From: Trypanosoma brucei
Taxonomy: Eukaryota
DNA length: 64,000 nt
Assembly (NCBI GenBank): GCA_000002445.1
Contig: CP000070.1
Location: forward strand, 736,001-800,000
Direction: 5' to 3'
The position numbers and the translations under genes are program-made. The notes beneath the pieces were generated by a model, which did no database searches, was not told the origin of the DNA, and worked only from the letters and a program-made list of their open reading frames with translations. Below, in pieces: positions 87 through 42,004 of the stretch; position 1 is the first letter of the stretch, and every line of letters starts with the position of its first letter.

Positions 87-662
<576 letters not shown>

Positions 663-995: not shown

Positions 996-1571
<576 letters not shown>

Positions 1572-1904: not shown

Positions 1905-2480
<576 letters not shown>

Positions 2481-2812: not shown

Positions 2813-3388
<576 letters not shown>

Positions 3389-3721: not shown

Positions 3722-4297
<576 letters not shown>

Positions 4298-11267: not shown

Positions 11268-12549
11268 TTATGTATCCCCTCAGCGAAAAACATTCTGTAT
11301 GAACGGTGGTTGTTCCGATTGTTAGGAATGGGGTTGGTGGGGGGACGTTTCACATGCGTGGCAATCGTCCCTCTTATTATTCCTCCTCGTAAACTCCACT
11401 GCCCATCTGAGGCATTGCCCCAAGAACCATATTTCTGGACGTGGTAAGCGCATGTGAACAAAAGGGACGATATCATCTCCATCAGGTGAGGATATTCTCT
11501 TTTCTACGAATCATGGATATGCGAGGGAGACAATAACGGATAAACTTACCGACGTCACCACTCACTTTAGGAAAATGGCAGTTGCGGAGATGTTAAAGGC
11601 CCAAGCATGTTTTCTACCTTTTCCTTTTAAAAAAAGAACGGAATATGAGAGGGAAAATAAACGGAAAGGGGGTAAGAGCCTCAGTTCAAGGGAGAAGAGA
11701 ATACTAGACCTCTTTTAACACCCTGATGTACAGCATCACCGCCACCGACTTTCAGCCGCAGGTTTTTCCCTTCCCTCACTTGTCGTGGCGAAAATTGTGT
11801 GTGGCTACAATGGAGCAAGGTAACTTGCACCGCATGTTTCTCATTTTGAAAGGATTGTTGGCATTAATATTGCTTTCTCGTTTTGTTTTGTTGTTACAAT
11901 ACAGAGCCTCTGCACCGAGGCGACTTATGAGTGTGTGTTTTACATAAAAATATGTGCATGTCTTCGTCACCCTGCTGCTCCCAGTGAAAGAATGCGTCCT
12001 GTAGGGTAAAACCCTGAAGTAGTCCGTGACTTTGCCACTCTCTTAGATCACAGTTGTTAATTATTAAATTATCTACTGACATGGCTGCTCCTACATGAAG
12101 TAAGGGTAGAGATCAAATAGTTTATAATAAAATACTTCTCGTAAACACTTGCTTGCTTTTTGCGTGTTACAAACCTGTCTTCACCAAGGAAAAAAAGTCA
12201 CTCAATCTTGTTATTCTCATTAGTCTTTCGACACCCCTTCATTTTGAGGAAACAACGAATCATTACGATTTCTTTATTTATATTGTAGACAATTGCTCCC
12301 TCATTCAAGTCCTATGCATGATCTACAATTTTCTCGGATCTCTTCCACATTTCACAGAAGGGTCACGTCACGAAGGAGAACATGTGTATGCATACCGGTT
12401 CACTGCCGCTTTGTCAAATACGTACTGTGTTTTTGTACTAGCACCCAAACTCTTCCCTTCCCTTTATCCTTCTCTCTGCCCCAGTGTCATTTTAAGCAAC
12501 AAAGACTAACCAAACAGGAATATTAATATATCTTACAAACGTTTTCACC

Positions 12550-13122
12550 ATGCGCCGGTCTGTATATCAGCTAAGCAAGGAACTCCCAATCTCTGAGGAC
12601 GAGGTTGCGTGTCTGGTGAAGAAGGTGATGCGTGAATGCCCATCAGCCTTCAATTCCCAATCCTCACGTGCTGTGATCCTCTTTGGAGAGCAACACACAA
12701 AGCTATGGAACCTAACGAAGGATAAGCTAAAGGCGACAGTGAAACCCGATTCCTACAATGAGGCCGCCAAGAAGATTGATGGGTGCTTCGCCCCCGCTGC
12801 CGGTACCATATTGTTTTTCGAGGATAAAAGTGTTGTTGAAGGACTTGTCAAGTCGTACCCCGCATACGCAGAAGGTTTCCCAGTGTGGTCAACTGAATCA
12901 TCAGGTATGGCTCAATTCGCCGTGTGGACAGCACTTGCAGAAAAAGGTATCGGTGCGTCTCTGCAGCACTACACATCACTGATCGGTGAGGCGGTGACGG
13001 CGGAGTGGAAGCTTCCGGCAACATGGGAGATGCATGCACAAATGCCATTTGGAAAGCCACTGGAGAAGTGTGGCGAGAAGACGTACATGCCGGATGAAGA
13101 ACGCTTTAAGGTGTTTAAATAA
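12550..13122 (+). CDS. Small nitroreductase-like protein of the Hbn1/Frm2 type (nitroreductase superfamily), paralog A
   Basis: 190 aa. ECPSAFNSQSSRAVILFGEQHTKLWN matches the yeast Hbn1/Frm2 core (PTAFNSQPNRAVILTGETHKKVWD). LQHYTSLIGEAV ~ LQHYNGYIKAAL. C-terminal GEKTYMPDE ~ GEKTYIKND. Same length class as yeast Frm2/Hbn1 (~193 aa). Confidence 0.8.
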   Translation: MRRSVYQLSKELPISEDEVACLVKKVMRECPSAFNSQSSRAVILFGEQHTKLWNLTKDKLKATVKPDSYNEAAKKIDGCFAPAAGTILFFEDKSVVEGLVKSYPAYAEGFPVWSTESSGMAQFAVWTALAEKGIGASLQHYTSLIGEAVTAEWKLPATWEMHAQMPFGKPLEKCGEKTYMPDEERFKVFK

Positions 13123-13952
13123 AGTTCGTTGATATTTTTACCGTACTTGATCACACACATGTATTCCTCCATGGACTGATCTTATTTACACTCTTGGTGT
13201 TATTCACCCTCCTTTAAGCACCAATTTCTTTGCAATACATGCATATACATGTTGGTTTTGGGGCACCTTTATATTGTTATCCAACTGCTTTTTTTGTTCG
13301 CCACGCTTTTCCACTTCTTACCTTTTACACACTAGGTTAATTTGGGCACCGCGTGAGGTTAATATGACCAAATGTATGTTTCTCATGTTTTCCCTTCGTT
13401 TAGCGAGGCAAATGTATTGAAGAAAGTGTCGTGGTTGGGGTAAGTGGTGTTACACGCACGACGTGTTCGTTACCCACCCTTTCCACCCTCTTCTCATGCT
13501 TCTGCACTTCTTTACTTTTTTGTTCATTCGTTTATATACATATATACATATATATTTACGTGTTCTGGCTTCTACGATTTTTAAAAAACACGTATCGCTA
13601 TAATTATAAGCGTGTACGCACTTATTTTTTTGTTATCGCTCTATATACATGTGGTGCATAATACAAGGTGTCTCATTATCACTAGAGGTTTCTTAGGTAC
13701 CGTACCCCGGTCATGTAGCATGATGTAGAGGGATGAGAGTCGATATGAATATAATAAATGATGCTTGTAAGGATGATTTGACCAACTACCGCTTTCGTAC
13801 ACGTGTGTATTTTTGCATGCTTGTGTTTTATCTGCTTTGTTTATTGTAACCCATTTAAATCATATTTTTTTGTTCACTTCTGTTGTCTTTTTGTCACTGT
13901 TGAATTGTTCCCATTGAGTTAGCTGAATTTCATTGGTTTTTGGAGTTATCAC

Positions 13953-14138
13953 ATGATGTACGTGCTTGTAGCCGTGGCCATGTTGGCAATATTCTTCGCA
14001 GCTTTAGTGCTGTTTTTACGCGGTAAGTTATCTGCTGGATCAGTTGCCACGAGCAACGGTGGAATTGGCAGTGATTCTGGGCTGATGCCCGGTGAGTCAG
14101 TCACTACGAGAGTTCGTCGTGCTCGGAAGGAGGAATAA
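13953..14138 (+). CDS. Small ORF (61 aa) encoding a single-pass TM peptide with a charged C-terminal tail; hypothetical
   Basis: MMYVLVAVAMLAIFFAALVLFLRGKLS...RVRRARKEE. Sits in a 1.66-kb intergenic space with an upstream polyY tract (ttttttgttcacttctgttgtctttttgtcactg) and is conserved identically in the duplicate (26622..26807). There is no independent evidence of expression. Confidence 0.25.
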   Translation: MMYVLVAVAMLAIFFAALVLFLRGKLSAGSVATSNGGIGSDSGLMPGESVTTRVRRARKEE

Positions 14139-14468
14139 CGATTATCATCCAACAGTGAATATGAGCGGTTGGTGGCGCCTCAGGTGACACGGTTTGTTCG
14201 CAAGATTCGTGCCGCCGCGTTATTTGTTTCCGATTGAGCGCATATGCCGCAGTTAGGTAAATGTTCGGTTGGTGTTGCTGTGGATCTACTGATGTGATCT
14301 GTTGTTGTTGTGTTGTTTTTGAAGAACATTTTTTTAAATACCTTATATTTGTTTTTAATTCTCTCTTCCTTTTTTGTTACACTAATGTGGCCGTAAAGCA
14401 TCCTTAATTAATATTTTGGTTGCCATTGTTAGGTGTCTCCGCAGTTATGTTTACTGTTGGTAATGAAA

Positions 14469-14490
14469 CTATTCTTATTATTATTATTAT
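14469..14490 (+). repeat. (TTA)7 microsatellite; (TTA)5 with ttcttatta in the duplicate at ~27133
   Basis: ttattattattattattattattc vs ttcttattattattattattc; this is the only length polymorphism of its kind between the duplicated segments. Confidence 0.9.
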
Positions 14491-14782
14491 TATTATTCTT
14501 TTTCTATCCCTTGGCCTTCACCATTATCTTTTTTTTCTTACTTTTGTGACTTCTATGTTTTCAATGGCTACTCAACCTCCCTCCACAGCAGTGCTGTGAT
14601 CTTATCATTTCTCCTGCAAATCCCTGCCGTACATTGTGGTGCTTTCTATATTCTGTCGGCGGAAGCACTCGTGGTAAAAGAGGGGGTAGGGAAAGAGGGA
14701 AACGTGACGAAAGAAGTGGATAGCGTTGAATAACTTGAGAGGCACAATTGTGGAGAGGTTAGATACGAAAGAGTAGTGGAGG

Positions 14783-15721
14783 GTGGGGATCATGTCAAAC
14801 CCACCTAAGCACTACAGTGTGGAGTCATTGCGGACGGTTGGGCTTCTGCCTGCGCAACTGGCCTTGTCCCGTAAGCCACGTCTTCGCCCACACGTAGGTA
14901 ATCTCAAGGGTCTTGTTTACCCTCTACCGTATTACGCAATGTGGCGTGGTAATCACAACAAATACACATATAACAAAAGCACTGTGTGTCTATGGGGAGA
15001 AGGCGATACCCGTTCCATGTACCATCAACATTATGCTCATGCAAAGTGCCCGACGGACTACGGGCGTGGTGGAAGAGAATTTGAATACCTTACAGTGAAG
15101 CGTGGTAAGATGTTACAGAAACCGCTACCGCGGGTGCAATACGTGGCGGAAGGGTCCAAGCCGGTGTGGCTCTTCAAGTCGTGGCATACGCCTCTCAGCT
15201 CACCAAGCATGTGGGAACGAGAGGTTCAGTACGCCGAGCATACACCAGAGCATATTGGTGCCAAGCGGCCGCTTGCAGTAGTCGCACCACGTACAATGCA
15301 TCGCTACCTGTTTCTTATGCATATGGAAAAGGTGACCATTACTGTATCCCCTCTGTTGTTTGGTTATGGTCACACCATACAGAAAGCTGTGTTGGATTTC
15401 TACCGCCGTGCTATAAGTGCTCGCTCTCCATTCCCAAAGGATAAAGTGTTTCTCTTTTATGCCATTGATCACATTACACCTCGTATTGAAGTGACATGGC
15501 TGGATGGGACGTCATATGTTCCACCTGTGTTGGAGGGTGCAAGTTCGCAAGACCTCATTCAGATGGTGATGGAAGAGGCTTGGTTGGCTGCAGATCGCAT
15601 GGCTGCGGAAGGCCGTGTGCTCAATCCGTTAGCAATTGACGATTATAAGTGGGATCAGTTGGTTGTGTTTAAAAAGGTACGGGATAAGGAAGCGAGCAAG
15701 GGTGGTGGCAGAAAGAAGTAA
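14783..15721 (+). CDS. Conserved hypothetical protein (312 aa), basic C-terminus; paralog A
   Basis: Long ORF with coding-like composition and an identical copy at 27449..28387. Ends in a basic KKVRDKEASKGGGRKK tail. No recognisable domain by eye; it could be an organellar/ribosome-associated protein. Confidence 0.6.
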   Translation: MGIMSNPPKHYSVESLRTVGLLPAQLALSRKPRLRPHVGNLKGLVYPLPYYAMWRGNHNKYTYNKSTVCLWGEGDTRSMYHQHYAHAKCPTDYGRGGREFEYLTVKRGKMLQKPLPRVQYVAEGSKPVWLFKSWHTPLSSPSMWEREVQYAEHTPEHIGAKRPLAVVAPRTMHRYLFLMHMEKVTITVSPLLFGYGHTIQKAVLDFYRRAISARSPFPKDKVFLFYAIDHITPRIEVTWLDGTSYVPPVLEGASSQDLIQMVMEEAWLAADRMAAEGRVLNPLAIDDYKWDQLVVFKKVRDKEASKGGGRKK

Positions 15722-17376
15722 GGGATAGGAATTTGTTTGGGTTAGGGGTGGTGGCACCGTGGCCGATTTTTATTTTCCAGTTGTGGTTGTTGTTTTATGG
15801 TACCTCACTTACCCCTTTCCTTTAATTCACAGCTCTTACCGTAGTGTAACTCCTTGTTTTTGCACTTTACGCCAGGTGTGGATGTTGAGTGTTACATTGG
15901 GTTGGTCATTGCCATGCTGATATATATGTGTGCTTTCATTGAAAGTTCATACGGATACTAATATCTTTTCTTTTCATTTACGTTATCACGATATGACGGT
16001 GGTGTTTGTGCCGTTATTGTATTTTGCATCGTGTATGATCCCTTTTCATTTCTCTCTTTCCTCTTTTTCCTCTATTTCACAACACTACTTTAACCTACCG
16101 ACTGACCGAAGTTTAGTGAAGAGGATTGAAACACGACAGGATTAAGCAAAAGGAAAGAAACAGGAAACAGTGTAAGGTGGAAAGGTAGAGTTGTAGGAGG
16201 GACCAAGAAAACGTGTTTGGGCGAAAGGGAAGTTGGGGATTTCTGCATTAAAGGGGAAGTAATGTTTGGCTTTTCAAATTGATTTGTTGGAATTTTGTTT
16301 TTGTGCAAGGTGTGTTGCCGTGTCACTATGTTTATAATGGAGGCTAATTCTATGGGTGCTTGCCTTGTTTGTGCAATCTTTTCCATTTCGTGTTGTATCT
16401 GATCTTATGAACTTCGTCTGGTTTATCCGCTAATAACGTTGTTAATGTAAATGGCAACCATGCGTCGCCCTTTCGGTTTTAAAAAAAACGAACAACTATA
16501 TTCTTTGCCCTTGGTATTTCCATTCCTCAATTTCTCTTTTCTTTTTGTCGCCTTCTCTAGGTGTAGTAAACGCACCGGACTACGCGAAATATAAGACGAC
16601 GGAGGGAAAGAGGATTACATACACGCTACACGAAGGAAAGGGCTTATCATTATTAATTTTCGTGCATTACTTTATTTATCCCGATTTCTCATTCCCCTCT
16701 TTCGTTAGCACCTCCTCTTCCCCTCCCCTTGAGAGTGAAGGGAAGGGAGGTAACGGGTGATTACCAACTGTTTTCGGTGTGACGTGGCCGATCCACCCGT
16801 GTAAGGAACCGGCTTTCACTTTGAGAGACTCTAACGTTCCCGTGTTGGGTCTAAGGAGGGAGGAAACCGGTAGCGACGGGGTATTTAAGACAACTACTTT
16901 TTTTGCGGTAAAAGTGGGCTGGACGTTAGGAAGAAGACGAAGAGGAACCGTGCGTAAAAAAGGTTGTTGTGAGTGAGGTTCCGCTATAGAGGCTAAATAA
17001 GGGTGAGGAGGGTTGTAGGCCCGAAGGGTAGTTGGGTGCTGTGTCACCTGCAGGGAGGAGGTGCGACTACAATTTCGTCAATAGCATCGCTAGTGTTAGT
17101 TACGTTTAGTGTAAAGGCAGAACTGTTTCTAGGGATTGGACTCCGCTAGAACAACGGAACGTGAAGAGTTGCATTTACACAACTCAGTGAGAATTGAGGG
17201 TTGAGGACCCGACGAGAAACCTACGGAGCCGGGGAAAAGAAATCAGTTGCCACAGAACGTTATTTTCATACCCACCATATACTACAGTTTTCCTTAATAT
17301 ATTATTGACTGTTTTTTTTTTTTTAAAGCTACCCAACGACGTGGGTTTCGACTCCTGATAGATTGCAGCCTCTTGC

Positions 17377-20300
17377 TTGCAGTATTCAACGGGGATGACG
17401 TCTCAAACGTCGGCCGTCCTCGTTGCAGTGCGCGTCCGCCCGTTCAACTCCCGGGAGGCTCCTCACGAATGTACAGTTACCGTCACGGATCCGCGTACCA
17501 TCACGCTGACTGATGTCGGTCAGGTTAATCGGTTTAGCACAAGTGTAAGTGGCAGCATGCAACGCCACGTCTTTACGTTCGACAAAATTTTCTGGAGTGT
17601 TCCCGGTTGTGTTCTACCACTTCCTACGACACCCAGTGGGCACAGTCAACAGATGCCGTCCGCGAGCTCCATTAGGTTATCAGTAGCGGATAGTTCTTCG
17701 ACACATTCCCCCTCCCCTACAGAGTCGCCAACGGTGCGAAGGAGTAGCAACAGCAGTGATGCAAGTGTGCCTTGTGCTGCTCCGACGGCGGAGGTTTCTG
17801 TCAGTGCAATAACATGCGTAAGACCTTCATTTCATCGTTTGCCGTGCTTTGCGCAGACCCCAAGTTGTGATAATCAGACTTCTGTCTATTCATTTATCGG
17901 CCCGCTAATGTATGACTCGGTTATGACCGGGTATAACTCATGTTTGTTTGCGTACGGTCAGACAGGGAGCGGCAAAACCTACAGCATGATTGGGCCCCAT
18001 GACAGTTTTTCGGAGAAGGGTGATCAGAGAGGGATTATTCAGCGACTGTGCGAAGACCTCTTCGATATGATGAGGCGTGAGCGTGAAGAGGATGAAGGAA
18101 TCTCCTACAACGTGGAATGTAGCTTTTTGGAGATTTATTGTGAACGCGTGCGTGATCTACTCACCCACACCACGTTTCACAGTACTAATGACGATTATTC
18201 TGCTCCTAACGTTACCACGATGGGCCCACCGTCGAATTTGCGCTCTAAGACCTCGCCGTCTCAGTCGTTGGTGCTGACACCTCGGCAAGGTTCTTCTAAT
18301 CCCTCCCCTCAACTTCGAATTCGGCAGCACCCGACGCATGGACCATATGTCGAGGGTCTTTCCCATGTTAAGGTGCGTGACGTGGAAGGTGTCATGCACC
18401 AACTGACTTGTGGAATGCGAGAACGTGCCACCGCGGAAACACGTATGAACGAACACAGCAGCAGGAGCCATGCATTACTGCAGCTCAATATCACACGTGT
18501 GTCGGCCGTGCGAGAGGAGGAAGCTGTTGTCACACGAACGCGTGTATGTAAGGTTAGTCTCGTGGATCTCGCGGGAAGTGAACGGATTTCGCAGTCAGGT
18601 GCTACAGGTGACCGCTTCGAGGAGGCTCGTAACATCAACCTATCCCTTACAACACTTACTCGTGTAATAATGCAACTCACGGACAAACAGGCGGGGAAGA
18701 ACGTGGTGCCTAGTTACAGGGACAGCGCGCTCACGTGGCTTCTATCAGACAGCCTGGGTGGTAACAGCAAGACAATTATGCTTGCTACGGTGGCTCCTAG
18801 CGCGTACTGCTATCAGCAGACGCTGAATACACTTCGTTTTGCCGGCGTTGCGAAGACGGTGATCAATGTGGCCACGGTCAACGAAGACCAGCGCTTCCAG
18901 AAATTGATTACGTCCTTGAGGGAGCAGATTGTAAAGCTCACTATGCAGGTAGAGGAGGGGAGGATACTTGATCCTCAAAATAGCGAAATAAGGAAGTTGC
19001 GTCGAGATAAAGGTGAGCTGGAGACGCAGCTTGAAGCCATGCGGATAAAAGTGTCCAAAATGGTGCCCGCAACTGATTTGGAGATTCTCCGGCGGCGTGT
19101 GGCAGAGACTGAGGAAGAGAACACACGACTTCACGCGGAAAAGTGCAATTTACAGCGGCAGCTTATGACCACCACGACGAATCTCCGTGAAGAGTTGATA
19201 AGGCGGCGATCGGAGATTGTTAAATTGCAGGAGATGCTCTCAAAGAAGGACGTAGAGGTGCAGGAGTGGAAGCGTCGTCACCATTCGGAAGTGTTGCGAG
19301 GCGGCAAAGCGACACCACAGTCAACTGTACAATTGTCTCGAGGTCGTGCCGCTTCTGGAGGAAGGGCAGCGTCACCCAGTGGTGCCTTCAAATCCAATAA
19401 TAGCTCAAAATGTGGTATGCTCAAGACTGATGTTGCTAGTATTAGCAGTGATTCGATTGTTGAGGGAGATGCCGACTCCGGTTGCGCAGCTGTTGGCGAG
19501 CTGCAGTTTCGCAACCAACAATTAGAGCGTCGGGTAGAGAAGCTAACGGAGAGTGTGAAAGAGGAGCAGAAGCGCCGTGAAGACGTGGAAAAGGTGAATC
19601 ATAATCTGCGATTTGAACTACGCGAGCTGCAGAAGCTACGTGATGCTACAAGAGGACAGTTAGAGGAGGCACAACGTCGGCTCACTGAAAAGTCTCATGC
19701 ACTGGAGGCCGCAGAGAGTGATTTGGCGTCCACGCGGACGTTACTAAGTACTGAGCGGAATGGGAGCTGTGCCAGTGAAAGGGAAGCCCTACTCACCACA
19801 CAGTTGGAAGACCTTCGTGTGGAGTACTTGGGGGAAAAACAGTCCAATGTGGGCCTACTAATGCGTGTGTCTCACATGGAACAACAGTTGTTTCTTTCCC
19901 AGCAGGAGGCAGAAATAAAGTCACGGGATGTTGGTGAGCTTGAGCAAATGCTCTTGGAGGAGACGGAGACATCTGAGCGGTACTATATTTTTCAACTTTA
20001 TTACAGTGGGAAGGCCAACATATGTCACGCTTTCCATCAGAAGATCCTACTCGTTAAAAGTCTCGAACCCACAAATAGTGTTGGGGTCGTCACTGGAGTG
20101 ACACGGCGCTCTTCCTTCTCCGACGGGCCAAGCGTGTGCGTACGAGCGCTGCGCGACTGCGAGTGTAATGAGGGATGTAGACGGCTGCTGCTAGTGGAAG
20201 AGTGGTTCAATACCGTGTTGGACCTTGCAGCGCAACGGCACGCGATGTGGAGATGGTCGGCTTCCGCGTTAAGTGACGAGATACTGTCACTGCGGATTAA

Positions 20301-21423
20301 CTTTGCAGAGGGTGAGGAAAAGCAGCAACGACTTCTTCGGAAGTTAGAGACTGCGGAAATTTCCCTGGAGGAGGCGATAGCGGTCAGAAATTCCGTTCAG
20401 GCGACACTCAGTACCACTGTGGAGCAATGCGAGGAACTTAAACGACAGGTAGAGGACTTGAAGGAGGAGCTTCAGGCGCAGCAGCAGCGCAACGAGATGC
20501 TTATCACCAGAATTGCGGAGGTACAGGCAGTGCGTGACGTGTTCGGTGAACCGTCGCTGAGTGTTGACGATCCTGTTAGTGGTCTCACCTTAGATGGTAG
20601 AGGTGAGGAATACCAACGTTTTAGCCGAGGTAGTGGTGAAAGGAGTTTAGAAGATCTATCGAGTGAGATGACACTGTACAAAGAGAGGGTAGATATGTTA
20701 AGTGCCCAACTAGAAAGTGAACGCAATCGCAGTCACGATCTTCAAGTCGAGATGGAGCGTGAGTTGGAAATACGGCAGCAGGAGGTACAGCGTGTGAAGA
20801 GTAGTTGTAAGGCCTCATTGTTTGAGAGCACGCAAATTGTGCGAGAGTACGAGGCGCGGTTACAGGAATTGCAGGATGTGATTGAGACGTTGCGTACTGC
20901 CTTAGCGGAGGAGAGCAACAACGTGGACATCGCGCAGGAGGAAGTGCGGCAGGCCAAAGTAAGACACTGCACTTTGACGACTGAGCTGCATCGCGTTGTT
21001 GAAGTTAAAGAGTCGCTTGAGCGTAGGCTGGAAGACACGGAGCTTCAGTTTTCTACCATACAGCAGGAGCAACAAAAGTTAAAAAGAGAATTCTGTGAGG
21101 TGGAGCGGCGGTTGCTTGATTTAAGTCAGATGCACGAAGCGGATGTCTACCTCAACGTCAGATGTGGAGGCGAAGACAGCGAGTGGCTCGAAAAGGCAGC
21201 GCGTGAAAAGGAAGCCATTGAGCAGCAGAAGCGTTTAGTTCAAAAGCTTAACAAGGAGCTTCTGGAAGCAATAACGGAACAGAAAGCCTCTCTCCTTGAT
21301 ATGGATCGCCAGATTGCCCTTATGCAGCGAGGGGCGACCTCTCATAATGGTGAGGCGAACCTAACACAAGAGTCTAATGGCGGGGTAAGCCAATTCCAGG
21401 GTTGTATCGACGGGGAGGGATGA
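17377..21423 (+). CDS. Kinesin: N-terminal motor domain with large loop insertions plus a long coiled-coil tail
   Basis: VLVAVRVRPFNSRE (motor N-terminus), P-loop GQTGSGKTYSM, switch I NEHSSRSHA, switch II VDLAGSER, neck/tail with heptad-rich E/Q/R/L sequence. ~95-aa S/P-rich insert before the P-loop and a ~60-aa insert before IRQHPTHGPYVEGL. The start may be Met 17395 (MTSQTS). Confidence 0.85.
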   Translation: MQYSTGMTSQTSAVLVAVRVRPFNSREAPHECTVTVTDPRTITLTDVGQVNRFSTSVSGSMQRHVFTFDKIFWSVPGCVLPLPTTPSGHSQQMPSASSIRLSVADSSSTHSPSPTESPTVRRSSNSSDASVPCAAPTAEVSVSAITCVRPSFHRLPCFAQTPSCDNQTSVYSFIGPLMYDSVMTGYNSCLFAYGQTGSGKTYSMIGPHDSFSEKGDQRGIIQRLCEDLFDMMRREREEDEGISYNVECSFLEIYCERVRDLLTHTTFHSTNDDYSAPNVTTMGPPSNLRSKTSPSQSLVLTPRQGSSNPSPQLRIRQHPTHGPYVEGLSHVKVRDVEGVMHQLTCGMRERATAETRMNEHSSRSHALLQLNITRVSAVREEEAVVTRTRVCKVSLVDLAGSERISQSGATGDRFEEARNINLSLTTLTRVIMQLTDKQAGKNVVPSYRDSALTWLLSDSLGGNSKTIMLATVAPSAYCYQQTLNTLRFAGVAKTVINVATVNEDQRFQKLITSLREQIVKLTMQVEEGRILDPQNSEIRKLRRDKGELETQLEAMRIKVSKMVPATDLEILRRRVAETEEENTRLHAEKCNLQRQLMTTTTNLREELIRRRSEIVKLQEMLSKKDVEVQEWKRRHHSEVLRGGKATPQSTVQLSRGRAASGGRAASPSGAFKSNNSSKCGMLKTDVASISSDSIVEGDADSGCAAVGELQFRNQQLERRVEKLTESVKEEQKRREDVEKVNHNLRFELRELQKLRDATRGQLEEAQRRLTEKSHALEAAESDLASTRTLLSTERNGSCASEREALLTTQLEDLRVEYLGEKQSNVGLLMRVSHMEQQLFLSQQEAEIKSRDVGELEQMLLEETETSERYYIFQLYYSGKANICHAFHQKILLVKSLEPTNSVGVVTGVTRRSSFSDGPSVCVRALRDCECNEGCRRLLLVEEWFNTVLDLAAQRHAMWRWSASALSDEILSLRINFAEGEEKQQRLLRKLETAEISLEEAIAVRNSVQATLSTTVEQCEELKRQVEDLKEELQAQQQRNEMLITRIAEVQAVRDVFGEPSLSVDDPVSGLTLDGRGEEYQRFSRGSGERSLEDLSSEMTLYKERVDMLSAQLESERNRSHDLQVEMERELEIRQQEVQRVKSSCKASLFESTQIVREYEARLQELQDVIETLRTALAEESNNVDIAQEEVRQAKVRHCTLTTELHRVVEVKESLERRLEDTELQFSTIQQEQQKLKREFCEVERRLLDLSQMHEADVYLNVRCGGEDSEWLEKAAREKEAIEQQKRLVQKLNKELLEAITEQKASLLDMDRQIALMQRGATSHNGEANLTQESNGGVSQFQGCIDGEG

Positions 21424-22694
21424 TGCCGGTCTGTCGCTATGGTGCAAAATGCCTTTCCGCAACTTTTCTGAGGTGCCGTATTTGTCAGCAGATTTATGTC
21501 CTCACTCCTCGCTTTTCTTTTATTTCCCACGCTGCGTGTTTTGTCCTCTTTTCACTCTTTCTCTTTTTTTTTTTTGCAGCTACGTGGGCCTAGGTCGTGA
21601 AAGTGACAAAGAGTTCCTCAGTAATTTCCGATTCGTTACATTTTCCCACTTCTTTCCTTATGTTCCAGTCGGTACACATCTTTTTTACCCTTTGGTTTGT
21701 TTACCGTGCTCGTTCAGCCTGTGTGTGCGTATTTGCATTTGGTGAGCTGGGGAGGCGGGGGCCTGGCGGTAATTTTTTCATGTAATAAAAAATGATGGAA
21801 TACATAGTTCTGAGAGAAGTACAGGGTCGACAACGGGGGAGAACGAGACTTCTATGCATAAAGTTTCTTTTTTCAGGGGAGTCGATTTACATTGGAGCGA
21901 AGTTGTGGTGGAGAGAAAAAGGGATATGGTTAGAGTAACGATGTAAACACAAAGAAAGCACGCTTCTGCACGGCACGAAGAGTGGGTTGAAGGGTCCCAT
22001 ATCGTCGGTGGGTGGATTTCGAGGGTTATACGAGTCGATGAACGCGGTTGTCCGATAGTTTGTCCACTACACTATCAAGATATTACAGCGGAAGGAAAGA
22101 GAGAAGTTGGAGAAAAGCGTAGTAAATTAAAGTGTAACGGAGTCAGTGATCGGGTTGTACCATTACTATCATTATTTTGCTACCGCTATTACACAAGTGT
22201 CCCAGTGGTTTTCGTTTGCTATTTGATTCTTTTAGCTGTTCATCCCCCCTTGACCTTCTTCACTCCCCTTCCCAAGGGGTCGCGGAAGGTCAGGTGTGGG
22301 AAGTTATCAAAACTTTCTTTGTTTGGTGTGAACCATGGGAGTAAAGGAGTGGTGGCGGAGCGGGGAAACAGGGAACAAGCTGTTCTCGTGTATTCCTGTT
22401 TTCTTGTCCTCTTATGGTAACGTGTGTTATTTTCGTTCTGTGAAGGCATGCGGGTGAGCACAAGAATGCCCAAATACAAAGAGATGTGCACATGTACACA
22501 CTCTATGCAACACTTTATTTGTGATTGCGGCCACTTCATCCAAAACCAACTGCCCCAATCGCTACACTAAAACTACCGTGTTGTGCGGGTGTATCTCACT
22601 TCTGTCAGGTCATCCTTTTCTTCCTCTGCATTCTCTCCACCTGTGGTGAGCAGTATTTCGGTGGTTGGTTATACATAAACACATATATTAGAAG

Positions 22695-24965
22695 GTGATA
22701 ACGCAGCACCGAAGGGAGTATGAAATGAAGTTCCACCTTCAAAGCGTGCTCTTAATGGCACTGGACGTGGTTAAAGGGCCTTACCTCAGTTGCTTTGCAC
22801 CAGTTAACCCAGTTGAACAAGGAGGGGACGACCAACCTCGTGATGTACAAGGTGACGTAAACAAGGATAGCAGCAGGAACAAAGACATGTTGCACCTTCC
22901 AACGAATGCTGGCCGTTTTAAAGCATTTAGCGATGTCTTTGTGCCGAAATCTGAGTTCTGCCGTCGCGTAATGTGCCTGGTGGAAGCTGAGTCCGGAATC
23001 CTGTACTTGTTTTATCCAGAAGAGATATCTGGTGTCCACTATGAACGAAAAACATTGCGGTACACACTGTGCTTCGCCTTTGCCGTTGACACCAATCTTG
23101 TCACGGCTACTGCAGCGACGGTAGAGCGGCTTCTCCGACCGTATAGCTTTGTCTTGACGAGAATCGTAGAGGGGCTTCGCGAAGCGGAGCAGCGCTCCGG
23201 TTACATGTCTCGCGGCCTTTCCCACAGGCTTTCTACGCATTGTCCCAGCCGTGGAGATTGCCAACAGCAGCAGTCGAAAAATGACCTGATCGGCCAGCCC
23301 TCTCGCAGTGATTTTCACGAATATGGTGGTGGGGTAAGTGCTGAAATACACAGCGTGGTAGGTACAACGTCTTTTGCTTCCCCACCAACCGGGGACGAAG
23401 CGCTCTTTAGGTATGCCAAGGGAACGTCACGGGTCAACGTTTTCTTAACACCACCTCAGGATTCCTCCGGGATGCAGTGGACATCTCTCGAGGCGCTAAT
23501 GGGGGAACTCTTCACGTTTTTAGGAACTGACCCAAAGGAGGGTGAAACTAAGTGCCCGCGACCATGGGCGACAGAAAATACCGTTTCCTTAAGGTTGTGC
23601 GAAACGTTCTTCATTCCCGTGGGTCACAGGGCGCCACCCCATCTACCCCAGCAGCACGCCCTCGATGAAGTGCCCGTTCCCGTAGCCGCGTATGAGCCGG
23701 AGGTATTTGAACACGTGGATTTAGTTATGCACGACGTTTTTAGGATTGTTGATGGGAGGCGTACAATTCGCCAAATTGTACAGGTACTCGCTGCGGAGTG
23801 CGAACGGTACGAAGACAGTGATGAGCTACTCCAAAGGCAAGGACGTATATTTTCTCCCGCAAGCAGCCAGTGTGCTATACATTCGGTATTCGCGCATTCG
23901 CTGCATCCTGTGAACTTTCCCGGAAGCAGGAGCGCCCCGGAGGTTGGCGGTCTCGCATCATCAACTGCGTCAACAAATGCACATCCCAGGGATGCCTTGA
24001 ATACGCAGCGGGCAACCCCTGGGTTGCTCTCCCCGCCGTCAGCAGCAGATATATGTCTTACGTCCCCGTTCCCAAACACAGTATGCTCTGGTACGTGCTT
24101 CAGCGCTCCCACGGTATGCACGTGGTCGAGAACCCTACAGACGTCCCGGTACCTCCCCGAGCGGCAGAATGCTGAAGAAGCAGCAAACAACTCCATCAGC
24201 GACAAGCTCAGCGTTTGGTGTGAGTTGGAGTTACTGGTTGTTGAGGCTCTCCAGCACTTGGAGGTGCACAACTACGTGAAGATCATTCGACCCATTAAAA
24301 TGAAGTACACCTACTTCGCAACGAACGCACTATACTCAATAATGTCCGACAGAAGCAGTCCTGCACGGCAGCTACTAGGAAAACGTATGCTTCTTGTGGA
24401 ATACATGTTTCACAAAGAGAAGGGACAACGCACCAGCTTACAGGGCTCCTCAGGCAATCAGAAGCGACTGCAAGAACTTGCTCCAGAGTACAGAAAAAAT
24501 TTGGAGGGTCTCAACTCTGCAACCCGTCTTACCCCGCCACTGGCTCCACTTAGCGCACATGATAAGGGAGTTGCGGTGGATGATGAAATATCCAGGGAAC
24601 AGCAGTATCATATAAAGCGGGAGCGTTCCAGCGACACTGCTTTGCCGTGTTCCACCTCACTGAGACACAGTTCTACAGAGTGTCTTCAGGATGGGGATTC
24701 ATCACACGATGACGTGGATGTGACTCCAGCCGCGGAAACAAATCCAGATAGACATGAGGCGACCTACACTGAGGTTCTCATTAACATGGCAGCTGCCGCG
24801 GCTCTCTGTGCGCTCGGTAAATTCAGTGGCTCCACAATTTTCAGTGTACAGAGGGATATGCAAGGACACCCTCAGTGGTCGAATGCCTTTGCTAACTGGG
24901 AAGAAAGCTGCTGCAAATCATTGGTCGAAATAGCCATAATTAACGGTTGGCTGGTTGCTCAATGA
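22695..24965 (+). CDS. NPRL2/Npr2-like protein (GATOR1/SEACIT subunit-like) with kinetoplastid-specific low-complexity insertions
   Basis: N-terminal longin-like region [22 protein letters not shown] ~ NPRL2 [40 protein letters not shown] ~ [32 protein letters not shown] ~ [36 protein letters not shown] ~ [20 protein letters not shown]. Alignments were done by eye only. The start could be Met 22725 (MKFHLQ). Confidence 0.45.
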   Translation: [756 protein letters not shown]

Positions 24966-25226
24966 ACTGTACCATAAGTTGTTCAGACGATTGGTTACAG
25001 CAAAGGTACGGTACACTATACATTCCTGCACATCAAGGGTCACATCACGAAGGAGAGCATGTGTATGCATACCGGTTCACTGCCGCTTTGTCAAATACGT
25101 ACTGTGTTTTTGTACTAGCACCCAAACTCTTCCCTTCCCTTTATCCTTCTCTCTGCCCCAGTGTCATTTTAAGCAACAAAGACTAACCAAACAGGAATAT
25201 TAATATATCTTACAAACGTTTTCACC

Positions 25227-25799
25227 ATGCGCCGGTCTGTATATCAGCTAAGCAAGGAACTCCCAATCTCTGAGGACGAGGTTGCGTGTCTGGTGAAGAA
25301 GGTGATGCGTGAATGCCCATCAGCCTTCAATTCCCAATCCTCACGTGCTGTGATCCTCTTTGGAGAGCAACACACAAAGCTATGGAACCTAACGAAGGAT
25401 AAGCTAAAGGCGACAGTGAAACCCGATTCCTACAATGAGGCCGCCAAGAAGATTGATGGGTGCTTCGCCCCCGCTGCCGGTACCATATTGTTTTTGGAGG
25501 ATAAAAGTGTTGTTGAAGGACTTGTCAAGTCGTACCCCGCATACGCAGAAGGTTTCCCAGTGTGGTCAACTGAATCATCAGGTATGGCTCAATTCGCCGT
25601 GTGGACAGCACTTGCAGAAAAAGGTATCGGTGCGTCTCTGCAGCACTACACATCACTGATCGGTGAGGCGGTGACGGCGGAGTGGAAGCTTCCGGCAACA
25701 TGGGAGATGCATGCACAAATGCCATTTGGAAAGCCACTGGAGAAGTGTGGCGAGAAGACGTACATGCCGGATGAAGAACGCTTTAAGGTGTTTAAATAA
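25227..25799 (+). CDS. Small nitroreductase-like protein of the Hbn1/Frm2 type, paralog B
   Basis: Identical to paralog A except for one substitution (ILFFEDK -> ILFLEDK; ttc->ttg). Confidence 0.8.
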   Translation: MRRSVYQLSKELPISEDEVACLVKKVMRECPSAFNSQSSRAVILFGEQHTKLWNLTKDKLKATVKPDSYNEAAKKIDGCFAPAAGTILFLEDKSVVEGLVKSYPAYAEGFPVWSTESSGMAQFAVWTALAEKGIGASLQHYTSLIGEAVTAEWKLPATWEMHAQMPFGKPLEKCGEKTYMPDEERFKVFK

Positions 25800-26621
25800 A
25801 GTTCGTTGATATTTTTACCGTACTTGATCACACACATGTATTCCTCCATGGACTGATCTTATTTACACTCTTGGTGTTATTCACCCTCCTTTAAGCACCA
25901 ATTTCTTTGCAATACATGCATATACATGTTGGTTTTGGGGCACCTTTATATTGTTATCCAACTGCTTTTTTTGTTCGCCACGCTTTTCCACTTCTTACCT
26001 TTTACACACTAGGTTAATTTGGGCACCACGTGAGGTTAATATGAACAAATGTATGTTTCTCATGTTTTCCCTTCGTTTAGCGAGGCAAATGTATTGAAGA
26101 AAGTGTCGTGGTTGGGGTAAGTGGTGTTACACGCACGACGTGTTCGTTACCCACCCTTTCCACCCTCTTCTCATGCTTCTGCACTTCTTTACTTTTTTGT
26201 TCATTCGTTTATATACATATATATTTACGTGTTCTGGCTTCTACGATTTTTAAAAAACACGTATCGCTATAATTATAAGCGTGTACGCACTTATTTTTTT
26301 GTTATCGCTCTATATACATGTGGTGCATAATACAAGGTGTCTCATTATCACTAGAGGTTTCTTAGGTACCGTACCCCGGTCATGTAGCATGATGTAGAGG
26401 GATGAGAGTCGATATGAATATAATAAATGATGCTTGTAAGGATGATTTGACCAACTACCGCTTTCGTACACGTGTGTATTTTTGCATGCTTGTGTTTTAT
26501 CTGCTTTGTTTATTGTAACCCATTTAAATCATATTTTTTTGTTCACTTCTGTTGTCTTTTTGTCACTGTTGAATTGTTCCCATTGAGTTAGCTGAATTTC
26601 ATTGGTTTTTGGAGTTATCAC

Positions 26622-26807
26622 ATGATGTACGTGCTTGTAGCCGTGGCCATGTTGGCAATATTCTTCGCAGCTTTAGTGCTGTTTTTACGCGGTAAGTTAT
26701 CTGCTGGATCAGTTGCCACGAGCAACGGTGGAATTGGCAGTGATTCTGGGCTGATGCCCGGTGAGTCAGTCACTACGAGAGTTCGTCGTGCTCGGAAGGA
26801 GGAATAA
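26622..26807 (+). CDS. Small ORF (61 aa) TM peptide, duplicate copy
   Basis: Identical to 13953..14138. Confidence 0.25.
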   Translation: MMYVLVAVAMLAIFFAALVLFLRGKLSAGSVATSNGGIGSDSGLMPGESVTTRVRRARKEE

Positions 26808-27448
26808 CGATTATCATCCAACAGTGAATATGAGCGGTTGGTGGCGCCTCAGGTGACACGGTTTGTTCGCAAGATTCGTGCCGCCGCGTTATTTGTTTCC
26901 GATTGAGCGCATATGCCGCAGTTAGGTAAATGTTCGGTTGGTGTTGCTGTGGATCTACTGATGTGATCTGTTGTTGTTGTGTTGTTTTTGAAGAACATTT
27001 TTTTAAATACCTTATATTTGTTTTTAATTCTCTCTTCCTTTTTTGTTACACTAATGTGGCCGTAAAGCATCCTTAATTAATATTTTGGTTGCCATTGTTA
27101 GGTGTCTCCGCAGTTATGTTTACTGTTGGTAATGAAACTATTCTTCTTATTATTATTATTATTCTTTTTCTATCCCTTGGCCTTCACCATTATCTTTTTT
27201 TTCTTACTTTTGTGACTTCTATGTTTTCAATGGCTACTCAACCTCCCTCCGCAGCAGTGCTGTGATCTTATCATTTCTCCTGCAAATCCCTGCCGTACAT
27301 TGTGGTGCTTTCTATATTCTGTCGGCGGAAGCACTCGTGGTAAAAGAGGGGGTAGGGAAAGAGGGAAACGTGACGAAAGAAGTGGATAGCGTTGAATAAC
27401 TTGAGAGGCACAATTGTGGAGAGGTTAGATACGAAAGAGTAGTGGAGG

Positions 27449-28387
27449 GTGGGGATCATGTCAAACCCACCTAAGCACTACAGTGTGGAGTCATTGCGGA
27501 CGGTTGGGCTTCTGCCTGCGCAACTGGCCTTGTCCCGTAAGCCACGTCTTCGCCCACACGTAGGTAATCTCAAGGGTCTTGTTTACCCTCTACCGTATTA
27601 CGCAATGTGGCGTGGTAATCACAACAAATACACATATAACAAAAGCACTGTGTGTCTATGGGGAGAAGGCGATACCCGTTCCATGTACCATCAACATTAT
27701 GCTCATGCAAAGTGCCCGACGGACTACGGGCGTGGTGGAAGAGAATTTGAATACCTTACAGTGAAGCGTGGTAAGATGTTACAGAAACCGCTACCGCGGG
27801 TGCAATACGTGGCGGAAGGGTCCAAGCCGGTGTGGCTCTTCAAGTCGTGGCATACGCCTCTCAGCTCACCAAGCATGTGGGAACGAGAGGTTCAGTACGC
27901 CGAGCATACACCAGAGCATATTGGTGCCAAGCGGCCGCTTGCAGTAGTCGCACCACGTACAATGCATCGCTACCTGTTTCTTATGCATATGGAAAAGGTG
28001 ACCATTACTGTATCCCCTCTGTTGTTTGGTTATGGTCACACCATACAGAAAGCTGTGTTGGATTTCTACCGCCGTGCTATAAGTGCTCGCTCTCCATTCC
28101 CAAAGGATAAAGTGTTTCTCTTTTATGCCATTGATCACATTACACCTCGTATTGAAGTGACATGGCTGGATGGGACGTCATATGTTCCACCTGTGTTGGA
28201 GGGTGCAAGTTCGCAAGACCTCATTCAGATGGTGATGGAAGAGGCTTGGTTGGCTGCAGATCGCATGGCTGCGGAAGGCCGTGTGCTCAATCCGTTAGCA
28301 ATTGACGATTATAAGTGGGATCAGTTGGTTGTGTTTAAAAAGGTACGGGATAAGGAAGCGAGCAAGGGTGGTGGCAGAAAGAAGTAA
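27449..28387 (+). CDS. Conserved hypothetical protein (312 aa), paralog B
   Basis: Protein identical to 14783..15721. Confidence 0.6.
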   Translation: MGIMSNPPKHYSVESLRTVGLLPAQLALSRKPRLRPHVGNLKGLVYPLPYYAMWRGNHNKYTYNKSTVCLWGEGDTRSMYHQHYAHAKCPTDYGRGGREFEYLTVKRGKMLQKPLPRVQYVAEGSKPVWLFKSWHTPLSSPSMWEREVQYAEHTPEHIGAKRPLAVVAPRTMHRYLFLMHMEKVTITVSPLLFGYGHTIQKAVLDFYRRAISARSPFPKDKVFLFYAIDHITPRIEVTWLDGTSYVPPVLEGASSQDLIQMVMEEAWLAADRMAAEGRVLNPLAIDDYKWDQLVVFKKVRDKEASKGGGRKK

Positions 28388-29162
28388 GGGATAGGAATTT
28401 GTTTGGGTTAGGGGTGGTGGCACCGTGGCCGATTTTTATTTTCCAGTTGTGGTTGTTGTTTTATGGTACCTCACTTACCCCTTTCCTTTAATTCACAGCT
28501 CTTACCGTAGTGTAACTCCTTGTTTTTGCACTTTACGCCAGGTGTGGATGTTGAGTGTTACATTGGGTTGGTCATTGCCATGCTGATATATATGTGTGCT
28601 TTCATTGAAAGTTCATACGGATACTAATATCTTTTCTTTTCATTTACGTTATCACGATATGACGGTGGTGTTTGTGCCGTTATTGTATTTTGCATCGTGT
28701 ATGATCCCTTTTCATTTCTCTCTTTCCTCTTTTTCCTCTATTTCACAACACTACTTTAACCTACCGACTGACCGAAGTTTAGTGAAGAGGATTGAAACAC
28801 GACAGGATTAAGCAAAAGGAAAGAAACAGGAAACAGTGTAAGGTGGAAAGGTAGAGTTGTAGGAGGGACCAAGAAAACGTGTTTGGGCGAAAGGGAAGTT
28901 GGGGATTTCAGGAGGTGAACTCAGGAGCAACATATATATATATCTTTGTTTTTGTGTGCGAGGGTGTTGATCGTTTGGGGAAGCGGGAAGGAGCTGCTAA
29001 GAGTTACTTCTTCGTTTCTTGAGGCAGAATCCTACTCTAGGGTTTGCTATCTTATCTGAGGGGAGGAGGCGACTTCCCGGATAGTGAAGGAGGAAAGAAA
29101 ATTATTGGTTGAAGTTAAGGAGAGTGATTGCATACACAGGGTCAAGTAGGAAACTGTCCTAG

Positions 29163-32196: not shown

Positions 32197-32548
32197 GAGA
32201 TTAAAGACGAATAATAAATGAAAGCCAAGATGAAAAGTGGAGGCGAAAAGGTGAAAACAAACAGCAACGCGGGGGCACGTGAGAATAAAGAATTGGATAT
32301 GCGCTACCCAATGGGCAAACTAGACAAGATGATGAAAGTAGTGAAAGAAAATGAATGCATGAATTCATGGGATGAGAAAAAAAAAATAAGGGCATACATA
32401 CAGCACACCATTTTTTTTGTTCTTTTTTTTTTTTTTACTTATTGTTTTTGTTATCACTTCGTATAAAATCTTTTTTTTTTTTTTGAGGGACTCTCAAACG
32501 CTTAGGTGAAGGTGATGGAGGTGAAGGTGTGAAGGAGGTTTGCGCGCG

Positions 32549-32551
<3 letters not shown>

Positions 32552-32629
<78 letters not shown>

Positions 32630-32630
32630 G
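32552..32630. repeat. Compound microsatellite (AT)16(GT)~21
   Basis: catatatatatatatatatatatatatatatatat gtgtgtgtgtgtgtgtgtgtgtgtgtgtgtgtgtgtgtgtgtgcgtgtg. Confidence 0.95.
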
Positions 32631-41992: not shown

Positions 41993-42004
41993 GCGTCTGT
42001 GTCT

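What the first reader, a model, noticed from the sequence alone, without database searches (positions are those of the whole stretch)
12358..28909. A 3.9-kb near-identical direct duplication brackets an 8.8-kb kinesin + NPRL2-like segment, giving a 12.7-kb amplifiable unit
The segments 12358-16243 and 25035-28909 are about 99.9% identical. I noticed one coding change (F93L in the nitroreductase-like paralog), a (TTA)n length difference, one small indel and a couple of intergenic SNPs. Each copy carries three co-linear ORFs. This level of identity implies either a very recent duplication or ongoing gene conversion. The right-hand copy starts only ~70 bp after the NPRL2-like stop codon. The kinesin and the WD40 gene are therefore driven by different 5' flanks, while the helicase and the NPRL2-like gene share identical downstream processing signals. 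Direct repeats of this size are classic substrates for unequal crossing-over or looping out of the intervening 12.7 kb. They are also a classic source of assembly collapse or expansion, so the true copy number may differ from what is seen here.
Basis: seen in the sequence. Interest (0 to 1): 0.55.

Follow-up and report, generated by a model that had tools for sequence, protein, structure and literature searches.

The report
Old gene-cassette duplication kept identical
A real 3.9-kb three-gene cassette is present twice on Trypanosoma brucei chromosome 7 and is kept almost identical by gene conversion; both copies are already annotated in the reference genome, so this is an ordinary case of a known process.

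Summary
The repeat is real. Window 12358-16243 (R1) and 25035-28909 (R2) differ by 7 substitutions and 2 indels, with sharp edges.

The window is T. b. brucei TREU927 chromosome 7. Each copy carries a nitroreductase-family gene (Tb927.7.2980/3020), a conserved 61-aa membrane micro-ORF, and mitoribosomal protein mL53 (inferred IDs Tb927.7.2990/3030). Between the copies lie the kinesin TbKINX1B and an NPR2-like gene.

It is not an assembly artefact. A gap-free T. b. equiperdum chromosome has the same two-copy layout. The deviant layouts in gambiense DAL972 and T. equiperdum OVI have runs of N exactly at the odd junctions.

R2 is ancestral and R1 is derived. T. vivax and T. melophagium have one cassette, in the R2 position. 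T. rangeli and T. conorhini have a protein kinase gene where R1 sits.

The near-identity reflects gene conversion, not youth. At 25 sites both copies share a strain-specific base, and only 1 site is copy-specific across strains. Paralogs differ by about 0.2%, strains by 0.8-0.9%.

Spliced-leader-tagged transcript contigs place the trans-splice acceptors inside the repeat, so both copies are complete expression units, probably doubling dosage.

There is no evidence for amplification or excision. Low interest.

The parts
12358..16243 (+). R1, the upstream (derived) copy of the 3.9-kb cassette, inserted between the helicase and the kinesin
   Evidence: Searches give the boundaries. T. vivax, T. 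rangeli and T. conorhini have no cassette at this position.
25035..28909 (+). R2, the downstream copy at the ancestral position between the NPR2-like and WD40 genes
   Evidence: T. melophagium and T. vivax have the single cassette at this position.
12550..13122 (+). Nitroreductase-family gene, copy 1 (F90). Exact match to AAZ12362; Tb927.7.2980.
   Evidence: Pfam PF00881, E = 5.5e-17. Exact cluster look-up. Named as a pair with Tb927.7.3020 in PMC5879877.
25227..25799 (+). Nitroreductase-family gene, copy 2 (L90, a change private to TREU927). Exact match to AAZ12366; Tb927.7.3020.
13953..14138 (+). 61-aa single-pass membrane micro-ORF, copy 1. Its exact sequence is not in the protein collection, and the flanking TREU927 entries AAZ12362/AAZ12363 are consecutive.
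   Evidence: A positional homologue is an intact ORF in T. melophagium (41% identity, E = 5e-6) and in T. vivax, with a shared C-terminal RKE[ED] stop motif. Exact sequence absent from the collection.
26622..26807 (+). 61-aa micro-ORF, copy 2
14792..15721 (+). Mitoribosomal large-subunit protein mL53, copy 1 (AAZ12363; inferred ID Tb927.7.2990)
   Evidence: PDB 6HIV chain Ap 'mL53', E = 8e-217..
27458..28387 (+). mL53, copy 2 (AAZ12367; inferred ID Tb927.7.3030). Protein identical to copy 1.
12450..12484 (+). Polypyrimidine tract plus AG trans-splice acceptor of the nitroreductase mRNA, inside R1. The twin in R2 is at 25127-25161.
   Evidence: Logan contig L007 begins with 27 nt of the spliced-leader 3' end, joined at the AG at 12483-12484. 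Tract scan.
14527..14588 (+). Polypyrimidine tract plus AG trans-splice acceptor of the mL53 mRNA, inside R1. The twin AG in R2 is at 27253-27254.
   Evidence: Contig L023 begins with 13 nt of the spliced leader, joined at the AG at 14587-14588. Tract scan.
12380..12380 (+). The only copy-specific site conserved across strains: A in R1, G at 25057 in R2. It lies 23 bp from the repeat edge.
   Evidence: Alignment column 23: A in every R1 and G in every R2, across TREU927, T. b. equiperdum, DAL972 and OVI.
16244..25034 (+). Single-copy 8.8-kb segment between the repeats: kinesin TbKINX1B (17395-21423, Tb927.7.3000) and the NPR2-like gene (22725-24965, Tb927.7.3010)
   Evidence: Pfam hits. Exact matches to AAZ12364 and AAZ12365. 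PMC8906236. PMC5879877.
8793..11267 (+). Upstream neighbour: DEAD/H helicase Tb927.7.2970
   Evidence: 100% identity to Tb927.7.2970. Pfam.
29163..31070 (+). Downstream neighbour: WD40 protein (AAZ12368; inferred ID Tb927.7.3040)
   Evidence: The abstract of bioRxiv 10.1101/2020.05.19.104984 names Tb927.7.3040 as a ZC3H5-complex member.

Best explanation
This is a genuine dispersed segmental duplication specific to the T. brucei lineage. A three-gene cassette (nitroreductase-family protein, 61-aa membrane micro-protein, mitoribosomal mL53) was copied from its ancestral site between the NPR2-like and WD40 genes (R2) to a site 8.8 kb upstream, between the helicase and the kinesin TbKINX1B (R1). 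Both sites lie in the same polycistronic transcription unit.

Each copy carries its own polypyrimidine tracts and trans-splice acceptors and the same intergenic and UTR sequence. Both copies should therefore be expressed and regulated alike, which would double dosage in a genome without gene-specific promoters.

The duplication predates the divergence of the T. brucei-clade strains sampled. The copies stay about 99.8% identical because intrachromosomal gene conversion, or an equivalent homologous exchange, repeatedly homogenises them almost to the repeat edges.

Shown here: the repeat is real, R1 is derived and R2 ancestral, the copies evolve in concert, and the splice acceptors lie inside R.

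Inferred: dosage as the benefit, the molecular route of the original copying event, and conversion as the specific homogenising mechanism rather than unequal exchange.
For: Reality of the duplication:
- The same order, helicase-R-kinesin-NPR2-R-WD40, occurs in GCA_003543875.1, which its source names T. brucei equiperdum. There are no Ns, and the copies are 12,201 bp apart.
- All four junctions exist in DAL972 contigs.
- The R1|kinesin junction is also present in T. equiperdum OVI.

Ancestry:
- One uninterrupted T. vivax stretch reads helicase, kinesin, NPR2, nitroreductase, mL53, WD40.
- T. melophagium reads kinesin, NPR2, nitroreductase, mL53, WD40.
- T. rangeli and T. conorhini read helicase, protein kinase, kinesin, NPR2.

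Concerted evolution:
- At 25 sites both copies share a strain-specific base. Only 1 site is copy-specific and none is crossed.
- Paralog divergence is 0.18% in TREU927 and 0.23% in T. b. equiperdum. Between those two strains, R differs by 0.78-0.88% and the unique flanks by 0.67-1.51%.
- The repeat boundaries are identical in all strains.

Expression units:
- Spliced-leader-tagged transcript contigs place the acceptors at 12483-84 and 14587-88, inside R.
- Tb927.7.2980 and Tb927.7.3020 are reported together as about 50-fold up-regulated in procyclic forms (PMC5879877).
- The dosage rationale for duplicates in polycistronic genomes is stated in PMC1855330.
Against: - No read-level data could be examined, so the copy number in TREU927 rests on assemblies only.
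- The transcript contigs come from another strain and cannot be assigned to R1 or R2, so expression of both copies is inferred and not shown.
- T. congolense DNA could not be retrieved, so the age of R1 is bracketed only as after the T. vivax split and before the T. brucei-clade radiation.
- The copy-specific signal rests on a single site.
- The strains fall into only two haplogroups (TREU927 with OVI; DAL972 with T. b. equiperdum), so the number of independent homogenisation events is small.
Confidence: 0.85

Rival explanations
1. The duplication is young and has simply not had time to diverge, with no gene conversion involved.
For: The copies differ at only 7 substitutions in 3.9 kb. Seen in one genome alone, that is what a recent event would look like.
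Against: - The same duplication, with identical boundaries, is present in strains whose R sequences differ by 0.8-0.9%.
- In each strain both copies carry the same 25 strain-specific bases.
- Without conversion this would need 25 parallel mutations, or independent duplications with identical breakpoints.
- The shared copy-specific marker at 12380/25057 argues for a single origin.
Confidence: 0.04
2. The second copy is an assembly artefact, a false expansion of one cassette.
For: Repeats of 3.9 kb exceed Sanger read length. Two other assemblies are visibly mis-scaffolded at this locus.
Against: - An independent gap-free assembly has both copies in the same order.
- Four distinct unique junctions are found in DAL972 contigs.
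- The mis-scaffolds are collapses or misplacements, which is what a true repeat produces.
- The copies carry a conserved copy-specific site.
Confidence: 0.02
3. The direct repeats act as a recombination substrate that lets the parasite amplify the 12.7-kb unit (as circles or tandem arrays) or loop out the kinesin/NPR2 segment. This would be a Leishmania-style adaptive amplicon.
For: Direct repeats flanking genes drive extrachromosomal amplification in Leishmania (PMC4028189). The evidence for frequent exchange between R1 and R2 shows that the two copies do interact.
Against: - The two gap-free assemblies examined have exactly two R copies and one intervening segment.
- TbKINX1B is reported as essential in bloodstream forms (PMC8906236), so deletion products should be lost.
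- No circular or tandem junction (NPR2-R-kinesin) was seen in any contig retrieved.
- From my own knowledge, not tested here, such amplification is much less characteristic of T. brucei than of Leishmania.
Confidence: 0.08

Closest known systems
Concerted evolution of duplicated genes in T. brucei tandem gene arrays (Jackson 2007, PMC1855330; gambiense genome paper, PMC2854126)
   Same: Duplicates lie within one polycistronic unit and are homogenised by gene conversion. Coding and UTR sequence are both duplicated, and dosage is the usual rationale.
   Different: - This is not a head-to-tail array. The two copies are separated by 8.8 kb holding two unrelated single-copy genes.
- The locus is not named in the main text of either survey. 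The neighbouring H2A array is listed.
- Here the copies cluster by strain even within T. brucei. Jackson reports that brucei and gambiense sequences were usually interspersed.
Repeat-mediated extrachromosomal amplification in Leishmania (Ubeda et al. 2014, PMC4028189)
   Same: Direct repeats bracket a gene-bearing segment in a trypanosomatid polycistronic genome.
   Different: - No amplicon, circle junction or copy-number variation was observed here.
- The repeats here are a gene cassette.
- The bracketed segment contains a gene reported as essential.
Subspecies-specific segmental duplications catalogued between T. b. brucei and T. b. gambiense (Table 1 of PMC2854126)
   Same: Multi-gene segments of a few kb are duplicated on core chromosomes.
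   Different: This duplication is shared by brucei, gambiense and both equiperdum assemblies, so it is not subspecies-specific. The apparent difference in the DAL972 assembly is a scaffolding artefact.

Membership tests
Segmental duplication under concerted evolution (ectopic gene conversion) | Two or more copies in one genome with far higher identity than chance allows | tested here: met
   3.9 kb with 7 substitutions and 2 indels.
Segmental duplication under concerted evolution (ectopic gene conversion) | The duplication is orthologous (same boundaries and positions) in the lineages compared | tested here: met
   Identical end sequences and the same flanking genes in TREU927, T. b. equiperdum, DAL972 and OVI. 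A copy-specific marker is shared.
Segmental duplication under concerted evolution (ectopic gene conversion) | Paralogs within a genome are more alike than orthologs between genomes | tested here: met
   0.18-0.23% within a genome vs 0.78-0.88% between genomes. 25 concerted sites vs 1 orthologous site.
Segmental duplication under concerted evolution (ectopic gene conversion) | Individual conversion tracts or their direction can be resolved | tested here: inconclusive
   Concerted sites span alignment columns 67-3747 and the marker at column 23 escapes. There are too few strains and differences to delimit separate events.
Tandem gene array (head-to-tail repeats) | Copies are adjacent, with no unrelated genes between them | tested here: not met
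   8,791 bp containing the kinesin and NPR2-like genes separate the copies.
Transposable element or retroposon insertion (ingi/RIME/SIDER-like) | Target-site duplication, terminal repeats, a poly(A) tail, or a transposase/RT ORF | tested here: not met
   No shared word longer than 4 nt flanks R1. There is no terminal inverted repeat and no A-tail. The content is three host genes with their intergenic regions.
Leishmania-type repeat-bounded amplicon | Direct or inverted repeats bracket the amplified segment | tested here: met
   Direct repeats R1 and R2 bracket 8.8 kb.
Leishmania-type repeat-bounded amplicon | Observed extrachromosomal or tandem amplification, or copy-number variation between lines | not testable with these tools
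   No read data were available. The assemblies that resolve the locus show no variation.
Nitroreductase family (Pfam PF00881) | Full-length match above the curated threshold | tested here: met
   62.9 bits vs a 23.5-bit cut-off, covering profile positions 4-167 of 167.
Kinetoplastid mitoribosomal protein mL53 | Sequence identity to the chain modelled in solved T. brucei mitoribosome structures | tested here: met
   6HIV chain Ap over residues 1-309, E = 8e-217.

The most novel reading that the evidence does not exclude
The two repeats are not just a passively homogenised duplicate. They would form a working recombination module that lets T. brucei populations reversibly change the copy number of the 12.7-kb unit, including the kinesin TbKINX1B and the NPR2-like nutrient-signalling gene, as Leishmania does at its repeats. 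The frequent R1-R2 exchange detected here would be the footprint of that process.
Probability: 0.06. Interest if true: 0.45.

Novelty: new member of a known kind. Interest (0 to 1): 0.18.

Why it matters
The practical value is mostly technical.
- **Mapping:** the pairs Tb927.7.2980/3020 and (by inferred ID) Tb927.7.2990/3030 are not uniquely mappable. Tb927.7.2990 was one of two genes missing from a genome-wide RIT-seq screen (PMC4445814). The paper does not say why; multi-mapping is my inference.
- **Assembly errors:** the repeat has caused visible mis-scaffolding in the T. b. gambiense DAL972 and T. equiperdum OVI assemblies. Those joins should not be read as rearrangements.
- **Biology:** this is a clean small example of a non-tandem duplication kept identical by gene conversion within a species. 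It adds an extra copy of a strongly procyclic-induced, bacterial-like nitroreductase and of a mitoribosomal protein. It does not open a new question.

Tried and rejected
- **Real rearrangement in DAL972** (kinesin/NPR2 block about 59 kb away) **and in OVI** (WD40 followed by kinesin). Rejected: N runs sit exactly at the odd joins.
- **Transposon or retroposon origin.** Rejected: no target-site duplication, terminal repeats, A-tail or element ORFs.
- **Originally longer duplication with decayed ends.** Rejected: no residual similarity or gene remnants beyond either edge.
- **R1 replaced a protein kinase gene and left a remnant.** No kinase trace is found in the window. T. vivax also lacks the kinase at this site, so its absence need not be linked to the insertion.
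- **The 61-aa ORF is spurious.** I first assumed so, because transcript contigs run from the nitroreductase straight through it. Rejected after finding intact positional homologues in two other species.
- **Known RNA genes inside the unit.** None at Rfam gathering thresholds.
- **Look-ups that returned nothing.** The L90 variant and the TREU927 helicase gave no contig. The T. congolense proteins have no contig on record, so the closest outgroup could not be examined.
- **Error in my notes.** I first called GCA_003543875.1 'Lister 427'. Its source names it T. brucei equiperdum. The labels '427_R1' and '427_R2' mean that assembly.


Full report
**1. Observation**

A self-comparison of the window finds one long direct repeat outside the histone array: 12358-16243 (R1, 3886 bp) and 25035-28909 (R2, 3875 bp). 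A global alignment with 400-bp flanks shows 7 substitutions, an 8-bp indel (13533-13540) and a 3-bp TTA indel (14475-14477). Similarity is lost abruptly at both ends.

Identity is 99.82% over aligned bases. The single coding change is F90L in the nitroreductase-like protein, not F93L. F is the state conserved in bacterial and other trypanosome homologues.

**2. What the sequence is**

All long ORFs lie on the + strand, and a 909-bp histone H2A tandem array sits at the left end. This is the pattern of a trypanosomatid polycistronic unit.

The helicase is 100% identical to Tb927.7.2970. The seven proteins from 12550 to 31070 are exact matches to consecutive TREU927 GenBank entries AAZ12362-AAZ12368. 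The window is therefore T. b. brucei TREU927 chromosome 7, and both repeat copies are already annotated there.

Each copy holds three genes:
- A nitroreductase-family gene (PF00881). Tb927.7.2980 and Tb927.7.3020 are named as a nitroreductase pair in PMC5879877.
- A 61-aa single-pass membrane ORF.
- Mitoribosomal protein mL53 (PDB 6HIV chain Ap, E = 8e-217). The IDs Tb927.7.2990 and Tb927.7.3030 are inferred from the numbering.

Between the copies lie the kinesin Tb927.7.3000, which is TbKINX1B (PMC8906236), and the NPR2-like gene Tb927.7.3010. Downstream is a WD40 protein (inferred ID Tb927.7.3040).

**3. Is it an assembly artefact?**

The exact nitroreductase protein is encoded twice in GCA_003543875.1, a chromosome-level assembly that its source names T. 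brucei equiperdum. The gene order is the same, the examined stretch has no Ns, and the copies are 12,201 bp apart.

Two other assemblies look different:
- In T. b. gambiense DAL972, helicase-R-WD40 is contiguous, while kinesin-NPR2 with partial R on both sides sits about 59 kb away.
- In T. equiperdum OVI, helicase-R-WD40 is followed by the end of R and then the kinesin.

In both cases a run of N lies exactly at the anomalous join (L003 12522-12621; L005 15346-15355). These are scaffolding errors caused by the repeat. Together the DAL972 contigs contain all four unique junctions. The duplication is therefore real and shared across the T. brucei clade.

**4. Which copy is ancestral?**

- One uninterrupted T. 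vivax stretch (L015) reads helicase, kinesin, NPR2, nitroreductase, mL53, WD40, then the next conserved gene.
- T. melophagium reads kinesin, NPR2, nitroreductase, mL53, WD40.
- T. rangeli and T. conorhini read H2A, AAA, EF-hand, helicase, a 399-aa protein kinase, kinesin, NPR2.

No outgroup has a cassette between helicase and kinesin. R2 is therefore at the ancestral site, and R1 is a derived insertion made after the T. vivax split. No kinase remnant is present in the window. T. congolense DNA was not retrievable, so the lower bound on R1's age is open.

R1 has no target-site duplication, terminal inverted repeat or A-tail. It has no decayed homology beyond its edges and no Rfam family inside it. 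It looks like a DNA-level copy of host sequence and not a mobile element. The molecular route of the copying event is unresolved.

**5. Why are the copies so alike?**

I compared R1 and R2 of TREU927 with R1 and R2 of the T. b. equiperdum assembly:

| Site pattern | Sites |
|---|---|
| Both copies share a strain-specific base | 25 |
| Copy-specific across strains (column 23 = 12380 A / 25057 G) | 1 |
| Crossed pattern | 0 |

The single copy-specific site is 23 bp from the repeat edge. It also holds in DAL972 and OVI.

Substitution divergence:

| Comparison | Divergence |
|---|---|
| R1 vs R2 within TREU927 | 0.18% |
| R1 vs R2 within T. b. equiperdum | 0.23% |
| R between the two strains | 0.78-0.88% |
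| Unique flanks and intervening segment between strains | 0.67-1.51% |

The boundaries are identical in all strains, so the duplication arose once. Sharing 25 lineage-specific bases between copies therefore requires homogenisation after the lineages split. That means gene conversion or an equivalent exchange, reaching almost to the repeat edges. A 'very recent duplication' is rejected.

**6. How it most likely works**

Several Logan contigs are transcript-derived.
- L007 starts with 27 nt of the spliced-leader 3' end, joined after the AG at 12483-12484.
- L023 starts with 13 nt of the spliced leader, joined after the AG at 14587-14588.

Both acceptors and their polypyrimidine tracts lie inside R. 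Each copy is therefore a complete processing unit.

Kinesin transcript contigs begin at 16577-16652, in unique DNA past R1. The strongest polypyrimidine tract upstream of the WD40 ATG (28715-28739) lies inside R2, and its twin lies in R1.

Trypanosomes lack gene-specific promoters, and duplicates are thought to raise dosage (PMC1855330). The simplest functional reading is a doubled dose of a nitroreductase that is about 50-fold induced in procyclic forms (PMC5879877), and of mL53. This step is inferred. The transcripts cannot be assigned to one copy.

**7. The 'amplifiable unit' idea**

Direct repeats do drive amplification in Leishmania (PMC4028189). The conversion signal shows that R1 and R2 interact. 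However, the two gap-free assemblies have two R copies and one intervening segment. No circle or triplication junction was seen. The bracketed kinesin is reported as essential in bloodstream forms (PMC8906236). I give this reading under 10%.

**8. Comparison with what is known, and verdict**

The gene pairs are annotated and are treated as duplicates in the literature. The process, concerted evolution of duplicates in T. brucei, is well described (PMC1855330, PMC2854126). Neither survey names this locus in its main text.

Two features are mildly unusual:
- The duplication is non-tandem.
- Its copies cluster by strain even within T. brucei, whereas Jackson reports that brucei and gambiense sequences were usually interspersed.

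This is a new, well-behaved member of a known kind. It matters mainly for read mapping and for recognising mis-assemblies. Interest is low.

Noticed in passing
window 13953-14138 and 26622-26807; L009 about 9511-9681; L015 about 11399-11572: A 56-61-aa ORF with an N-terminal transmembrane helix and a conserved C-terminal R-x-x-RKE[ED] stop motif lies between the nitroreductase and mL53 genes in T. brucei, T. melophagium and T. vivax. Its exact sequence is absent from the protein collection, and the TREU927 entries on either side of it are consecutive. It looks like a real, conserved micro-protein gene.
   Followed up: partly
window 12550-13122 (protein): The nitroreductase-family protein is as similar to gammaproteobacterial proteins (Morganella, Brenneria; 52-59% identity) as to its T. 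vivax and T. melophagium orthologues (57-58%). That pattern suggests an old bacterial gene transfer into trypanosomes. No phylogeny was made.
   Followed up: no
L001 about 4504-4512 and L002 about 16705-16713 (window about 19269-19719): The T. b. equiperdum assembly GCA_003543875.1 lacks about 450 bp inside the TbKINX1B kinesin gene. The junction has a 9-bp microhomology, and the ORF stops at codon 625. DAL972, OVI and the transcript contigs keep the segment. It could be a real truncating allele of a gene reported as essential, or an assembly error.
   Followed up: partly
L013 9694-10893; L014 9921-11120: T. rangeli and T. conorhini have a 399-aa protein kinase gene between the helicase and the kinesin. 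It is absent at that position in T. vivax and T. brucei. Whether it was lost or relocated in the salivarian trypanosomes was not checked.
   Followed up: no
L003 12522-12621 (FN554970.1, about 747-767 kb); L005 15346-15355 (CZPT02001705.1): Public assemblies of T. b. gambiense DAL972 and T. equiperdum OVI are mis-scaffolded at this locus. In DAL972 the kinesin/NPR2 block is placed about 59 kb away next to a 100-N gap, and partial mL53 fragments are annotated as separate genes (CBH12345, CBH12350).
   Followed up: yes
L006 1-387: Logan contig ERR7929161_920 joins the nitroreductase start codon to the reverse-complemented start of an unrelated 127-aa ORF that, by eye (not scanned), looks like an M20-peptidase N-terminus. 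It is probably a chimeric transcript-assembly contig.
   Followed up: no
window 1-4600: There are five or more copies of a 909-bp histone H2A tandem repeat at 98-100% identity, with a degenerate last unit (69%) at 4427-4726. This is the known H2A array (Tb57 in PMC1855330).
   Followed up: no
window 32540-32640 and 41990-42070: Long (TA)n(GT)n and (GT)n microsatellites lie in intergenic regions. The OVI contig breaks just before the first one.
   Followed up: no
window 16049-16110 vs 28715-28776: A 25-nt polypyrimidine tract followed by AG, the only strong candidate splice signal upstream of the WD40 gene, lies inside R2. It is therefore duplicated in R1, about 1.3 kb upstream of the kinesin ATG. 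Kinesin transcript contigs start further downstream, so the R1 twin may be an unused or alternative acceptor.
   Followed up: partly
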